From the NCBI RefSeq assembly GCF_053078305.1, contig NZ_CP166879.1: a stretch of DNA of 64,000 nt, one strand, 5' to 3'. Shown one piece after another: positions 45,601-48,600 of the stretch. Made by a program: the position numbers. Position 1 is the stretch's first letter, and each line of letters opens with the position of its first letter.

Positions 45601-48600
45601 ACTTAGAAAAAACAAAACATTTCCAATAGTTATTATTTCCCATTCACACATATCCCCTCTCTCGGCCTGTCCGGGATTGGATGAAAGACACTCTACAAAC
45701 GGGTGCCATATCGACTGAACCTCAGCAACCAGTTGACGGGGACTTTCGTCCCCGTCGCGGTTTTCCTACTACTTACACTGTAAGAACGCCGCAAACTCCG
45801 CTCCCCACAAATTCAGCCGGAACTCACACAACGAGCCGTGTAACATCCAGATGGTGAAGATAACCGTCATACAAATTGTGACGGTGATAAGCGATTTTTG
45901 CGACATAGCGCTTGACTCCTTTTACAGAGAGGCGCTAACCTTCTACTTGCTTAAGGTATGATGGTTAGGGCCTCGGGTTAACGTTAAGTTGACTCGGGGC
46001 CTTTCCACATCAGGCCTTCAGGTTCTCCCTCCAGCCATCAGCCGAAAGGCACCCACGCATAATTTACGGTTTTTGCCCTGTACGGGCAATAAAAAACCCG
46101 CCATCACAGCGGGTAGTAAACGGTTACCGGATACAGATCAGAATTTCAGGCCAATGCCAGCAGTAACTCCACTCGTGCGCCAGTCGCCAGAGCCGGAACC
46201 TTCGTAAGCCACATCCAGTGTAACACTCTCATTCAGGTTAAACTGTGCACCTGCAGCCCACGCAAGGGAGTTTTTTTTCGTGCTGTTGCTTTCAGAAAAT
46301 CCGCCACTACTGCTAATATTGTCCTTAATTTTCAGGTCAGCGGTAACTTTAGCAACGCCCATCCCTGCCATCGCATATAAACTCATGTACTGATTAACCC
46401 GCCATGAAGGCCCCGCTAACAGACTCCAGTAATTCGCCCTGATATCCGTTCTGGCAGAAGCTGCCGGATTCTTAATCTTCCTGCTATGATCGGCTGACTG
46501 CACATCAATAAATGTCTGTGAGTTAGTGAGAGAACGCGTCCATGTAAAAGAGGTGATAACGCCAAAATCATCCGTTATCTCGTAGCGATACCTGATATTA
46601 ATGCCCTGTGGATTTTTATCCTTGCCTTCATATCCACTGACCCGACCATCTGTATATTCGCCCAATGAAGAAAAGTAGTTTCTGTTGACGAAATGACTGA
46701 AAGTCTCCCTGTTATGAGCAGTCGCATCCTTTACAAAATCCTTCAGTCCCGGAAACTGAAAGTGCGCATACCCCAGAGAAATTGTATGGTCTCCTTCTGC
46801 TGCATGTGCTGGCATGGCTACCATGCTCGTCCCAATAACTGCACACGCAATAATCTTATAAATATTTTTCATTTTTAGATTATTCCTGTTATTAAAAGGT
46901 ACAGTAATGTGCGATTTTCCTTTATTTAATATAAATATAAATCAAATATATTGTATCGATCTGACAAAAAGTTTTTATTAATATAGATTTTCTTATCAAT
47001 CATACATTGATGCATTAATAACCAGTACCTTATCTATATATCTGGAAAAGTTAGACCATGAGGCAGCACCAGAATAATGTTCACAGGAATATATTTTATT
47101 TCCTGTAGCACAGGTGGATGTGGTGTAAATCGGTTGATAATAAGGTGCTACATACTGGCTATGATACCCCACCAGTGCCGGCATAATTGCACATGGATAC
47201 CCAAGGTCCTTTTCAAATCCGACGTCAACAGGTATTAACTTCGCGTCAAGCAGCATCATTTCGCCATGATAAATCATCTCACCGTCCGGGTTATACATGG
47301 CGATACCATACTCAGAAGGTGGAGTAACCATATTTGCGAAAGCATAAACCGTCGTAACACCAGGGTTCGTTCCCCTGACAATTACATGAAGCCTTAGTGC
47401 ATGATATCCATCAATCTGTTCATGCGTGTACATGACATCGGCCTTCTTCTCTGTTCTGATAAAGAAAAAACAACTTTTGCCTGACGGGATTGATGTTTTA
47501 AAAAAAGACTTTTCAGTCGCCGGTATGGTGCCTTTGTTGATCAGACACTGCGGCGTAAAACCTGGACTTATCCATACGCTGCCATCCGGCTTCATAATGC
47601 TCAAACCATACATGACACTTATCCCCAGAATGTATAAATATAAGATCCCATACCCTGCTCAAGATTCGACCACGTCACCGTATTGCCATTAATGGTTATC
47701 TTCGGTACTTTCCGATCCGCAAATACATTATTCCAGGGAAATAAACAACATACAGCCTGCAATGATTTCCCGTCGGGTTTATTCGTGTACGTCTTTGAGC
47801 CAGACTCCGCTGTAAATCTGTCCAGGAAAAATACCGGAGTCAGCACGCCCGTAACATTAACGTTATTTCTGTTATAAATGGCAAAACCGTATTCCAATAC
47901 TCACCTCCTGATCAGCGTAATCTGCCTATGCGAACAGCCAGTCGTCCATTCTGATCATAAACCTCAATTTTATCATTGCGGATCACCAGTCCTACATTCT
48001 GATTAGAGTAACGAATTGTCAGTTGCCCTTGTGACGTAACACTGAAAAGGCCTCCAATATTCAGGTTACCCTGAGAATCAACCTGAAAGTTTCCGTTCTG
48101 AATAACGGCACTCCGGATAACTGGCGAAGTGATACTTACCCCGGCTTTTACTTCATCCGCCACAACCTTCCGCGATACCAGTGTTTCAATCACTGCGTCA
48201 TAAATCATCGCTTTCGGGATCACTACCTTGCCACCTGATACCGCAAACGGATAGGCTGTGTTATCCGGATTATTTGGGTCAAAGACAAACAACTGCGACG
48301 CAGAAATTGCAACCTGACTTACAGGCCTGCCTTCACTGTCTTTTCCGGCGACAATCCCGATCCCCGCAGTGATGCCATCAACTCCCGCTTTTTTTGACCA
48401 CATCGCAAGGAAGGCCTCACCGCCTTCTTTATCCAGTTTAGTGATGCGCTTGTCGACCTCATTAAGCGATTCACTGGTTGACGAATCCAGTGTGGTTATG
48501 CGGGTTTCAATACCACCAATCGTTCTTGTCGTTTCTTCCCTGAGAGTCCCTACAACTTCGGTTGTCTTAATTGCAGCATCCTTTACAGCCTGCCCCTGCG

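What the first reader, a model, noticed from the sequence alone, without database searches (positions are those of the whole stretch)
45735..46090. Unannotated hok/gef-family type I toxin locus between the adhesin and Lom-like morons
A 45-codon minus-strand ORF (45769-45906) with AAGGAG RBS encodes MSQKSLITVTICMTVIFTIWMLHGSLCEFRLNLWGAEFAAFLQCK, carrying the Hok/Gef hallmarks: one TM helix, SLCE, and E(F/V)AAF near the C-terminus. A stem-loop follows the stop and a ~180-nt leader precedes it, as expected for a hok-type mRNA with mok/sok elements. It is below the 60-aa cutoff of the ORF track and sits in a gap that looks intergenic. A host-killing module here could stabilise the prophage or act in abortive infection.
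Basis: partly seen in the sequence, partly recalled or inferred. Interest (0 to 1): 0.75.

Follow-up and report, generated by a model that had tools for sequence, protein, structure and literature searches.

The report
Second Stx-phage hok/sok toxin module
The small ORF is a genuine Hok-family membrane-toxin gene that is already annotated and catalogued elsewhere, and its predicted antisense antidote RNA is the same molecule published since 2015 as the "bacterial microRNA" 24B_1, a link that none of the papers I could search makes.

Summary
The 45-codon ORF at 45769-45906(-) is real and belongs to the Hok/Gef family (Pfam E=4e-8; PHROG E=1e-23). It is not new. RefSeq labels the near-identical 46-aa gene "Hok/Gef family protein". 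The exact 45-aa peptide is on 543 public contigs. A 2025-26 preprint places the 46-aa form in Hok cluster 72 and found it toxic on induction.

The locus is a second hok module of 933W/Sp5-type Stx phages, between lom and L0129. It is distinct from the published hokW-sokW, of which this window keeps only a decayed remnant at about 32.3 kb.

Across 21 copies from E. coli and Salmonella, homology covers exactly one ~354-nt mRNA. Covariation supports both the closed 5'-3' (tac/fbi) fold and the alternative tac/ucb fold, which is the hallmark hok switch. No mok frame is conserved, and this copy has no terminator after the fbi.

The predicted sok-like promoter and RNA coincide with the published promoter, 80-nt precursor and 20-nt "microRNA-size" 24B_1 RNA of phage Φ24B (exact match, 45979-45998+). 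The published Δ24B_1 deletion removes the hok promoter, leader and sok. Those papers never mention hok.

The gene itself is ordinary. The 24B_1 link gives the finding moderate interest.

The parts
46096..46114 (-). Intrinsic terminator of the upstream lom gene; the hok promoter starts right after its T-run (context)
   Evidence: The terminator scan gives an 8-bp stem followed by TTTTTTATT.
46061..46089 (-). Predicted hok promoter: -35 TTGCCC (46089-46084), 17-nt spacer, -10 TAAATT (46066-46061)
   Evidence: Read from the sequence. Homology among 14 copies in unrelated contexts begins at these hexamers (ATTGCC ... TAAATT/TAGATT/TACATT). It falls below the consensus-scan threshold. The transcription start has not been measured.
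45701..46054 (-). Conserved hok mRNA unit (+1 to +354), from the 5' end GGGUGCC to the fbi GGCACCC
   Evidence: The homology boundaries are the same in 21 copies. MFE is -149 kcal/mol, z=-5.8. In the RNAalifold closed fold 97.7% of cells are paired and 20 pairs change on both sides, against 0-9 in the slid controls and 0/500 shuffles. Rfam RF01794 matches 45893-46054(-) at 37.9 bits, E=3.6e-6, below the gathering score of 59.
46044..46054 (-). tac-like 5' element (+1..+11); pairs either with the fbi (closed form) or with the ucb (open form)
   Evidence: Columns 10 and 11 covary with fbi-side columns 355 and 354 (UA>CG x7, CG>GC x8). They also covary with ucb columns 51 and 50 (UA>CG x6, CG>GC x6).
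45996..46005 (-). ucb-like element (+50..+59, GGAAAGGCCCC region)
   Evidence: The MFE of the mRNA truncated at +320 pairs +1..+11 with +50..+59. That helix is 96.3% paired, with 3 covarying pairs.
45943..46008 (-). Short leader ORF (GTG, 21 codons) that stops 21 nt before the hok SD; not a conserved mok
   Evidence: The 933W-type copies have 24 codons stopping 13 nt before the SD. The start codon is absent in several Salmonella copies. Only 4 of 21 copies have any frame that runs into hok.
45916..45921 (-). hok Shine-Dalgarno sequence AAGGAG; it sits in a hairpin opposite CCUCU in the closed fold
   Evidence: the enclosing helix (cols 122-126 with 147-151) is 100% paired.
45769..45906 (-). 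hok CDS, 45 aa (Hok cluster 72). The last codon is TAG where other copies have CAG (Gln46)
   Evidence: Median dN/dS is 0.23 over 201 pairs. The CDS is identical to tested construct 72_1589 except for this codon.
45734..45757 (-). GC-rich 3' stem-loop after the stop codon; inferred stop point for 3' trimming
   Evidence: 5 of its 9 pairs change on both sides and 98.4% of cells are paired. It has no U-tail on the hok strand, so it is not a terminator there.
45701..45732 (-). 3' fold-back region: fbi GGCACCC (45701-45707), plus the 3' halves of the extended closing helix and of the long-range helix (45720-45732) that masks the Sok-target region (45943-45955)
   Evidence: The helix cols 103-115 with 332-344 is 95.7% paired, with 4 covarying pairs.
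45912..45941 (+). sok-like antisense promoter: -35 TTGACT (overlaps the hok SD), 18-nt spacer, -10 TAACCT
   Evidence: The -10 is TAACCT in 18 copies and TATCCT in 3, and the spacer is 17 or 18 nt in all 21. sokW of 933W has the same -10 hexamer and the same geometry. Nejman-Falenczyk et al. independently predicted this as promoter p24B_1 (PMC4426718).
45948..46006 (+). Predicted sok-like antitoxin RNA (~60 nt): a 5' tail, then a 16-bp hairpin, then UUUCC. The published 80-nt '24B_1 precursor' spans about 45951-46030
   Evidence: Start inferred by analogy with the annotated sokW. Fold. The published RT-PCR primers map to 45951-45976(+) and to hok leader +26..+47. The in-vitro 81-nt precursor binds Hfq with Kd 25 nM (PMC10732415).
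45979..45998 (+). Exact match to 24B_1 (TAACGTTAAGTTGACTCGGG), the 20-nt 'microRNA-size' RNA of Stx phage Φ24B; it is the loop plus 3' arm of the sok-like hairpin and is complementary to hok mRNA +57..+76
   Evidence: Single exact match, 0 expected by chance. The sequence and 2223 reads are given in PMC4426718. The library kit was NEBNext Small RNA; that this kit is directional is my own knowledge.

Best explanation
This is a hok/sok-type type I toxin-antitoxin module of Hok cluster 72 (the closest named relative is HokA). It is carried as a moron between lom and the next accessory gene of 933W/Sp5/Φ24B-type Stx phages.

Shown here:
- The peptide is a Hok/Gef family member.
- The conserved unit is a ~354-nt mRNA.
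- Covariation supports two mutually exclusive pairings of the 5' end: with the 3' fbi (closed form) and with an internal ucb (open form).
- The antisense strand carries a conserved promoter, and a plus-strand RNA fragment from it has been sequenced in Φ24B.

Inferred by analogy with R1 hok/sok:
- The full-length mRNA is inert. The SD and AUG are paired, and the Sok-target region is masked by the 3' UTR.
- Slow 3' trimming back to the GC-rich stem-loop (+299..+320) removes the fbi.
- The 5' end then switches to the ucb and the leader refolds, exposing UUAAGCAA in a loop.
- The ~60-80-nt Sok-like RNA (published as the '24B_1 precursor') pairs there and the duplex is cut by RNase III. The 20-nt 24B_1 is then most simply a cleavage product.
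- When the Sok-like RNA runs out, Hok is made, inserts into the inner membrane and collapses the membrane potential.

Differences from R1:
- There is no conserved mok frame. Translation must start directly at the strong AAGGAG site or be coupled to a short, variable leader ORF.
- This copy has no terminator after the fbi.

The biological role is unsettled. The published data fit a modulator of the lysis-lysogeny balance or of lysis timing better than abortive infection.
For: Protein:
- Pfam HOK_GEF i-E=4.3e-8; PHROG 251 E=1.3e-23; NCBIfam best match is HokA; 45% identity to K-12 HokA.
- All seven residues that the Hok survey reports as conserved can be matched in this peptide by my own alignment: M1, C12, T14, L26, C27, E28, E38.
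- dN/dS is 0.23.
- The 46-aa form 72_1589 was cloned and is not among the 3 non-toxic constructs of 45 tested.

RNA:
- Homology boundaries equal the mRNA boundaries in 21 copies from four or more genomic contexts.
- Closed fold: 97.7% paired, 20 double-sided covarying pairs, 0/500 shuffles.
- Alternative tac/ucb fold: 96% paired, covarying at the same tac columns.
- Rfam sok model E=3.6e-6 over its full length.

Antisense:
- The -10, -35 and spacer are conserved in 21/21 copies, with the same geometry and -10 hexamer as sokW of 933W. sokW was shown to act as an antitoxin, and promoter mutations abolished that activity.
- 24B_1 matches exactly at 45979-45998(+).
- The published p24B_1 promoter is the same site, and the published 80-nt precursor covers the predicted sok-like RNA.
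- The precursor binds Hfq, as sokW partly needs Hfq.
- Φ24B's leader is identical to the window's from +30 to +182.
Against: - No mok frame exists, and R1 needs mok translation up to the hok SD.
- The Rfam score (37.9) is below the gathering score (59), and both NCBIfam scores are below their cut-offs.
- No terminator follows the fbi here, although P2-type copies have one.
- This copy lacks Gln46, and the 45-aa form has not been tested.
- The mRNA 5' and 3' ends and the Sok-like 5' end are predictions.
- The 80-nt RT-PCR product was seen only 80 min after mitomycin C and not at time 0. That is unlike a constitutive antitoxin, and opposite to sokW, which disappears after induction. That RT-PCR may also not be strand-specific.
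- The conserved antisense promoter hexamers also lie in structured parts of the hok mRNA, so their conservation alone does not prove a promoter.
Confidence: 0.85

Rival explanations
1. Silent relic. The module is a conserved but translationally dead hok copy: without mok coupling the sequestered SD and AUG are never opened, so only the RNAs are made, and any phenotype comes from the RNAs alone.
For: - No mok frame in 17 of 21 copies, and none in the window copy.
- mok translation is mandatory in R1.
- The SD and AUG stay partly paired even in the truncated MFE fold.
- A lysogen and a high-copy clone of the region grow normally.
- The last codon is lost in this copy.
Against: - The Hok ORF is intact in 21/21 copies, with dN/dS 0.23 and many synonymous changes. 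This is not expected if the peptide were never made.
- The SD is optimal (AAGGAG, 9-nt spacing).
- The peptide is toxic when expressed.
- The subfamily is in 1749 genomes, with up to 9 places per genome.
Confidence: 0.12
2. The published view. The main product of the locus is 24B_1, a 20-nt microRNA-like trans-acting regulator (targets d_ant and sdhB) matured from an 80-nt hairpin precursor, and the hok ORF on the other strand is incidental.
For: - 2223 identical 20-nt reads.
- Phenotypes of the 189-nt deletion are complemented in trans.
- ATP and metabolite changes occur with the plasmid clone, and binding to sdhB mRNA is reported.
Against: - The 24B_1 gene, promoter and precursor coincide with the sok-like element of a covariation-supported hok mRNA.
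- The same architecture exists in Salmonella and in P2-type prophages whose hairpin sequence differs, so the 20-mer itself is not conserved while the structure is.
- The deletion also removes the hok promoter and leader.
- By the 2015 primers, the complementing insert (45473-46037) carries the entire hok gene. The genetics therefore do not separate the 20-mer from the TA module.
- The papers never considered hok/sok.
Confidence: 0.1
3. A chance small ORF in an intergenic gap, with no function.
For: It is only 45 codons and there are no expression data for this window.
Against: Profile matches, purifying selection, conservation of the whole unit in thousands of genomes and RNA covariation.
Confidence: 0.01

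Closest known systems
hok/sok (parB) of plasmid R1
   Same: - A small single-helix toxin with the SLCE motif and a C-terminal domain.
- An mRNA of about 350-400 nt whose 5' tac pairs with a 3' fbi, with an alternative tac/ucb pairing.
- The hok SD is masked by an upstream CCUCU.
- The antisense promoter has its -35 over the hok SD and a TAnCCT -10 about 25 nt upstream.
- The antisense RNA is a 5' tail plus a long hairpin.
(the R1 sequence comparison is from my own memory of the R1 sequence.)
   Different: - No overlapping mok frame.
- The peptide is 45-46 aa rather than 52, and my own global alignment to R1 Hok shows only limited identity.
- No terminator after the fbi in this copy.
- The Rfam sok model scores below gathering.
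- It sits on a phage, not a plasmid.
hokW-sokW (mokW) of 933W/Sp5 (Takada et al. 2021, PMC8621323)
   Same: It is in the same phage family. sokW has the same -10 hexamer (TAACCT) and promoter geometry. It is a type I TA module with partial Hfq involvement.
   Different: - It is a different locus. hokW lies near the prophage end (933W 58460-58734), encodes 51 aa in the HokD cluster and has an in-frame mokW.
- It has 34% peptide identity and no DNA similarity to this locus.
- In this window hokW is only a remnant.
- Sp5 carries both modules, so the published ΔhokW-sokW strain still had this one.
Hok cluster 72, construct 72_1589 (Escalera-Maurer et al., bioRxiv 10.1101/2025.08.07.668861)
   Same: The CDS is identical to the window ORF except for the last codon. 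It was catalogued as a high-abundance cluster and was toxic on arabinose induction.
   Different: The window encodes 45 aa (Gln46 codon is TAG). The preprint analysed coding sequences only and explicitly left mok, Sok and the mRNA ends unanalysed.
24B_1 small RNA of Stx phage Φ24B (PMC4426718, PMC10732415)
   Same: It is the same DNA. The 20-mer matches exactly at 45979-45998(+). Its promoter p24B_1 is the sok-like promoter, and its 80-nt precursor covers the sok-like RNA.
   Different: It was interpreted as a trans-acting microRNA-like regulator. The hok gene, the hok mRNA and the TA logic are not mentioned in any of the three papers.
HokA of E. coli K-12
   Same: It is the best NCBIfam match, with 45% identity and a shared ..AAFL.CK C-terminus.
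   Different: The score of 38 bits is far below the equivalog cut-off of 89, so this is not a HokA orthologue. The K-12 hokA leader is cut by IS150, so the RNA elements cannot be compared.

Membership tests
Hok/Gef protein family (Pfam PF01848) | Significant match to the HOK_GEF profile over most of its length | tested here: met
   i-E=4.3e-8, 33.1 bits, residues 8-44 against model 6-42 of 42; PHROG 251 E=1.3e-23.
Hok/Gef protein family (Pfam PF01848) | One N-terminal transmembrane helix, then a C-terminal domain with the conserved L-C-E motif and a later Glu and Cys/Tyr | tested here: met
   The hydrophobic stretch is residues 5-22. L26-C27-E28, E38 and C44 correspond, by my alignment, to the conserved logo positions reported.
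Hok/Gef protein family (Pfam PF01848) | Kills or arrests E. coli when expressed | not testable with these tools
   From the literature only. The 46-aa form 72_1589 was tested, and only 19_179, 60_1482 and 69_1540 were non-toxic. The 45-aa form has not been tested.
HokA equivalog (NCBIfam NF007290) / Hok subfamily (NF007279) | Score at or above the curated cut-off | tested here: not met
   38.1 bits against a cut-off of 89, and 22.4 bits against 73. It is a Hok, but not HokA.
hok/sok/mok type I TA locus (R1 paradigm) | Long-range 5' tac / 3' fbi pairing that closes the full-length mRNA | tested here: met
   GGGUGCC pairs with GGCACCC, and all 4 pairs of the extension helix covary.
hok/sok/mok type I TA locus (R1 paradigm) | Alternative tac/ucb pairing in the 3'-truncated mRNA (conformational switch) | tested here: met
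   Seen in the truncated MFE fold. The helix is 96.3% paired, with 3 covarying pairs at the same tac columns. The processing step itself has not been tested.
hok/sok/mok type I TA locus (R1 paradigm) | mok reading frame overlapping hok and translationally coupled to it | tested here: not met
   The window's longest leader ORF (21 codons) stops 21 nt before the SD. Only 4 of 21 copies have a frame that enters hok.
hok/sok/mok type I TA locus (R1 paradigm) | cis-antisense Sok RNA from its own promoter within the leader | tested here: inconclusive
   The promoter hexamers and spacer are conserved in 21/21 copies, with the same geometry as sokW. A plus-strand 20-nt fragment and an 80-nt amplicon were reported in Φ24B. 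Antitoxin activity has not been tested, and no strand-specific full-length detection exists.
hok/sok/mok type I TA locus (R1 paradigm) | Transcript ends at a terminator just after the fbi | tested here: not met
   No terminator on the hok strand within about 300 nt, and the downstream fold has z=+0.68. This feature is met in the P2-type copy L007, 24 nt after the fbi.
Rfam RF01794 (sok) | Score at or above the gathering threshold | tested here: not met
   37.9 bits against 59, although E=3.6e-6 and the full model length is matched.
hokW-sokW of Sp5/933W | Same locus or sequence as the published hokW (51 aa, MKQQKAM...) | tested here: not met
   34% identity, no DNA similarity and a different genome position.
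24B_1 locus of Φ24B | Contains the 20-nt 24B_1 sequence with the p24B_1 promoter upstream on the same strand | tested here: met
   Exact match at 45979-45998(+). TTGACT/…TAACCT lies at 45912-45941(+). The leader is identical to Φ24B's from +30 to +182.

The most novel reading that the evidence does not exclude
The '24B_1 microRNA' and its 80-nt precursor are the Sok-type antitoxin RNA, and an RNase III-type cleavage product of it, from a mok-less cluster-72 hok module. On this reading, the phenotypes attributed to 24B_1 are caused wholly or largely by loss or multicopy gain of the Hok/Sok module, not by microRNA-like trans regulation. Those phenotypes are reduced lysogenisation and faster induction in the 189-nt deletion, and lower ATP with the plasmid clone. 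Together with hokW-sokW, Stx phages would then carry two Hok modules that tune the lysis-lysogeny outcome. That the 20-mer lies inside the sok-like gene is a mapping fact. The causal reinterpretation is the uncertain part.
Probability: 0.4. Interest if true: 0.65.

Novelty: new member of a known kind. Interest (0 to 1): 0.45.

Why it matters
As a gene, this is routine: a Hok/Gef toxin that annotation pipelines already call and that a recent survey has tested. It matters for three reasons.

1. Two separate literatures describe the two strands of the same 350 bp without citing each other. One covers Hok toxins. The other covers the '24B_1 bacterial microRNA', presented as the first functional microRNA-size RNA in bacteria. 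The 24B_1 deletion also removes the hok promoter and leader. By its published primers, the complementing plasmid carries the whole hok gene. The reported ATP drop is what a leaky membrane toxin could produce. This makes a decade-old claim directly testable with a few point mutants.

2. Sp5, the phage used to define hokW-sokW, carries an intact second hok module, so the published knockout was not Hok-free.

3. This large Hok subfamily keeps the classic RNA switch but has no conserved mok frame. That raises the question of how translation is released.

Tried and rejected
- I first took the locus for the published hokW-sokW. The primer and peptide sequences of that paper show a different 51-aa Hok. 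933W annotates it elsewhere, and there is no DNA similarity.
- I looked for a mok frame in all three frames of 21 copies with ATG, GTG or TTG starts. None is conserved.
- PADLOC defence models gave no hit.
- PDB sequence search gave no hit, so I did no structure prediction for a 45-aa helix.
- The consensus promoter scan found neither the hok nor the sok promoter, because both fall below its 4-of-6 threshold. I therefore relied on conservation and on analogy with sokW.
- I searched for a terminator after the fbi and found none here.
- The K-12 hokA leader cannot be compared because IS150 truncates it.
- I looked for transcript evidence in EHEC sRNA papers. The Pas-sRNA preprint only cites hokW, and the O145 genomics paper mentions an unrelated Hok in OI-57.
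- I searched for any paper linking 24B_1 with hok or sok. Only one mini-review holds both words, in separate sections. Subscription journals are not covered by that search.
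Full report
**Observation**

The ORF 45769-45906(-), ATG start, 45 aa, is present exactly as described. AAGGAG lies 9 nt upstream of the ATG. A 10-bp GC-rich stem-loop lies at 45734-45757, just after the stop. The flanking genes are a YadA-like adhesin (44188-45414, -) and an Ail/Lom protein (46138-46872, -).

The window is host chromosome up to about 32.0 kb. From there it is the late and accessory arm of a 933W-like Stx prophage inserted in wrbA.

**Identity of the peptide**

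- Pfam gives HOK_GEF at i-E=4.3e-8.
- PHROGs gives phrog_251 'MokW-like host killing' at E=1.3e-23.
- The best NCBIfam model is HokA, but at 38 bits against a cut-off of 89, so this is a Hok but not HokA.
- Identity is 45% to K-12 HokA and 34% to HokW.
- PADLOC and the PDB give nothing.

**It is not unannotated in public data**

- RefSeq/PGAP labels the counterpart 'Hok/Gef family protein' (WP_000078907.1, 46 aa) in the same YadA-like / hok / Lom context.
- The unit occurs in 1749 of 5426 complete E. coli genomes, with up to 9 places per genome and 18 places on plasmids. It also occurs in Salmonella and Shigella.
- The exact 45-aa peptide is on 543 contigs and the 46-aa form on at least 1000. 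Names given include 'protein HokA' and 'Small toxic polypeptide'.
- The window differs from the common form by CAG>TAG at the last codon.
- The survey by Escalera-Maurer et al. places the 46-aa form in Hok cluster 72. They cloned a CDS identical to the window's apart from that codon (72_1589, plasmid LRP157). They report 42 of 45 constructs toxic, and the three exceptions are other sequences.
- The original GenBank records of 933W, VT2-Sakai and Φ24B do leave the gap empty. This explains why it looked intergenic.

**A second hok of Stx phages**

The published hokW-sokW of Sp5 (Takada 2021) encodes a different, 51-aa Hok. 933W annotates hokW, mokW and sokW at 58460-58734, near the prophage end. 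There is no DNA similarity to the present locus.

In this window the hokW counterpart is a remnant at about 32294-32440. The promoter, tac, sokW and mok start are missing, there is a +1 frameshift, and there is an internal deletion. The same remnant is found in P13374 and TL-2011c-type phages. tblastn with seven Hok types finds only these two signals in the window.

VT2-Sakai (Sp5) carries an intact copy of the present module, identical to 933W's over 360 nt. The published ΔhokW-sokW strain therefore still had a hok.

**Anatomy and comparative test**

I collected copies from several contexts:
- Stx phages, in the order lom, hok, L0129;
- the end of P2-like prophages, after ogr;
- a lambdoid tail region, between J and a tail-fibre gene;
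- a plasmid;
- Salmonella, including tandem duplicates.

Homology starts at a promoter (-35 ATTGCC, -10 TAAATT, TAGATT or TAGAAT) and at the 5' end GCGGGTGCC. It stops right after GGCACCC. Beyond that point the sequences are unrelated.

The window's unit is 46054-45701, or 354 nt. Its fold energy is -149 kcal/mol (z=-5.8) and it pairs the two ends.

On 21 distinct copies (alignment A2), RNAalifold gives a closed structure of 76 pairs. In it, 97.7% of cells are paired and 20 pairs change on both sides. The slid controls give 0-9 such pairs, and 0 of 500 shuffles reach the observed values. The covarying helices are:
- the extension of the 5'-3' closing helix, where all 4 pairs covary;
- a long-range helix that masks leader +100..+112 with 3' UTR +323..+335;
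- the 3' stem-loop, where 5 of 9 pairs covary.

The hok SD sits in a hairpin opposite CCUCU, and the AUG pairs with codons 37-41.

Truncating the RNA after the 3' stem-loop (+320) switches the MFE structure. The 5' end now pairs with +50..+59, and the leader refolds to leave UUAAGCAA in a loop. This alternative helix is 96% paired. It covaries at the same 5' columns (10 and 11) that covary with the fbi side. Such three-way covariation is the classical signature of the hok tac/fbi/ucb switch described for R1.

The Rfam sok model matches +1..+162 at E=3.6e-6 but below its gathering score. That may be why the RefSeq records inspected show no RNA feature there.

**mok**

No overlapping frame exists here.
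- The longest leader ORF in the window (GTG at 46008, 21 codons) stops 21 nt before the SD.
- The 933W-type copy has 24 codons stopping 13 nt before the SD.
- Several Salmonella copies lack that start codon.
- Only 4 of 21 copies have any frame that enters hok.

R1 requires mok translation up to the hok SD. By contrast, the Hok ORF is intact in all 21 copies, with a median dN/dS of 0.23. So the peptide is under selection, while the route to its translation is unresolved. It could be direct initiation at AAGGAG, or coupling to a short leader ORF.

**The antisense gene and 24B_1**

On the plus strand, TTGACT (45912-45917, overlapping the hok SD), an 18-nt spacer and TAACCT (45936-45941) form a promoter. 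The -10 is TAACCT or TATCCT, and the spacer is 17 or 18 nt, in all 21 copies. sokW of 933W has the same hexamer and the same geometry. That promoter was shown to be needed for antitoxin activity. By analogy, the RNA would start at about 45948. It would form a 16-bp hairpin and end near 46006.

A mini-review led me to the 24B_1 papers. The 20-nt 'microRNA-size' RNA of Φ24B, TAACGTTAAGTTGACTCGGG (2223 reads, 80 min after mitomycin C), matches the window exactly at 45979-45998(+). It is the loop and 3' arm of that hairpin. The authors' BPROM promoter (-35 TTGACT, -10 CGCTAACCT) is the same promoter.

Mapping their other elements onto the Φ24B record (HM208303), in which hok +1 is 45636 and the ATG is 45784, gives the following:
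- The 80-nt precursor primers bracket the predicted sok-like RNA.
- The 189-nt Δ24B_1 deletion (45585-45772) removes the hok promoter, hok mRNA +1..+137 and the sok-like gene.
- By the 2015 primer sequences, the complementing and 'overproduction' insert spans 45473-46037. That is the complete hok-sok module with an intact 46-aa Hok.

Φ24B's leader is identical to the window's from +30 to +182.

The library kit was NEBNext Small RNA. By my own knowledge it is directional and needs 5'-P and 3'-OH ends. This fits a processed fragment of an RNA antisense to hok. The in-vitro precursor binds Hfq with Kd 25 nM. The plasmid and the lysogen both lower cellular ATP without changing growth.

None of the three 24B_1 papers contains the words hok, sok or toxin-antitoxin. 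In the searchable library, only one review holds both '24B_1' and 'hok', and it does not connect them.

**Mechanism: shown and inferred**

Shown:
- family membership of the peptide;
- the conserved mRNA unit;
- covariation for the closed and open pairings;
- a conserved antisense promoter;
- a sequenced plus-strand fragment in a phage with an identical leader.

Inferred from R1:
- the full-length mRNA is inert;
- 3' trimming proceeds back to the stem-loop;
- the Sok-like RNA binds the exposed loop and RNase III cuts the duplex, with 24B_1 as a likely product;
- Hok is synthesised when the Sok-like RNA is depleted;
- Hok depolarises the membrane.

Not explained:
- translation without mok;
- the missing terminator after the fbi in Stx-type copies;
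- why the 80-nt product was seen only after induction, whereas sokW disappears after induction;
- why Δ24B_1 speeds induction, whereas ΔhokW-sokW delays growth arrest.

**Role**

Abortive infection is weakly supported in general, since R1 hok/Sok did not protect against T4 in a 2026 re-test. The data that exist for this locus and for hokW-sokW concern lysogenisation, induction timing and phage release.

**Verdict**

What appears to be new is threefold. The locus is assembled here as a complete, mok-less hok/sok module supported by covariation. Sp5-type phages carry two hok modules. And 24B_1 and its precursor are the sok-like RNA of this module.

Noticed in passing
window 32294-32440 (+): A decayed remnant of the canonical hokW of 933W/Sp5. 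The promoter, tac, sokW and mok start are missing, there is a +1 frameshift (ATGAAAGCAG against ATGAAGCAG), and about 65 nt are deleted internally. The same remnant is 99.8% identical in P13374 (O104:H4), TL-2011c and related Stx2a phages.
   Followed up: yes
window 31929-31985 (+) and 31382-31585 (-): The 5' end of wrbA (MAKVLVLYYSMYGHIETM) is interrupted by the prophage, so the prophage sits in wrbA as 933W and Sp5 do. Next to it is a ymdF-like ORF with KGG repeats.
   Followed up: partly
window 44188-45700 (-): A YadA-like adhesin gene replaces L0129/vb_24B_43 downstream of hok. Its 286-nt AT-rich upstream region (45415-45700) is found in only 3 of 5426 complete E. coli genomes.
   Followed up: partly
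L023 (VT2-Sakai, AP000363.1), L004 (933W) and L025 (Φ24B, HM208303.1): All three reference Stx phages carry an intact 46-aa copy of this hok that their original records do not annotate. Sp5 therefore has two hok modules, and the published ΔhokW-sokW strain still had this one.
   Followed up: yes
L025 (Φ24B record 45473-46037): The plasmid pUC18_24B_1 is described in 2023 as carrying a 189-nt region. The 2015 cloning primers span 565 bp, which includes the whole hok gene and the fbi. The two descriptions disagree.
   Followed up: partly
window 11728-11921 (+): There is a strong Rfam match to Ysr251 (189 bits, gathering score 100) in the chromosomal part of the window, antisense to the ORF 11723-12787(-).
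   Followed up: no
L020 1001-1141 and 1491-1631; L021 1001-1141 and 1495-1635; L015 1381-1440: Some Salmonella genomes carry two cluster-72 hok modules in tandem about 490 nt apart. One locus has an Ibs-type toxin gene 240 nt downstream of hok, so type I toxins cluster there.
   Followed up: no
window 45734-45757: The palindrome after the hok stop also scores as an intrinsic terminator on the plus strand (followed by CGGTTTTCCT). It could stop transcription entering from the adhesin side.
   Followed up: no
L007, L008, L010, L011, L013, L016: In P2-like prophages this hok subfamily sits directly after ogr at the prophage end, and there it does have a terminator about 24 nt after the fbi. Once it is on a 146-kb plasmid beside T6SS-associated genes.
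   Followed up: partly
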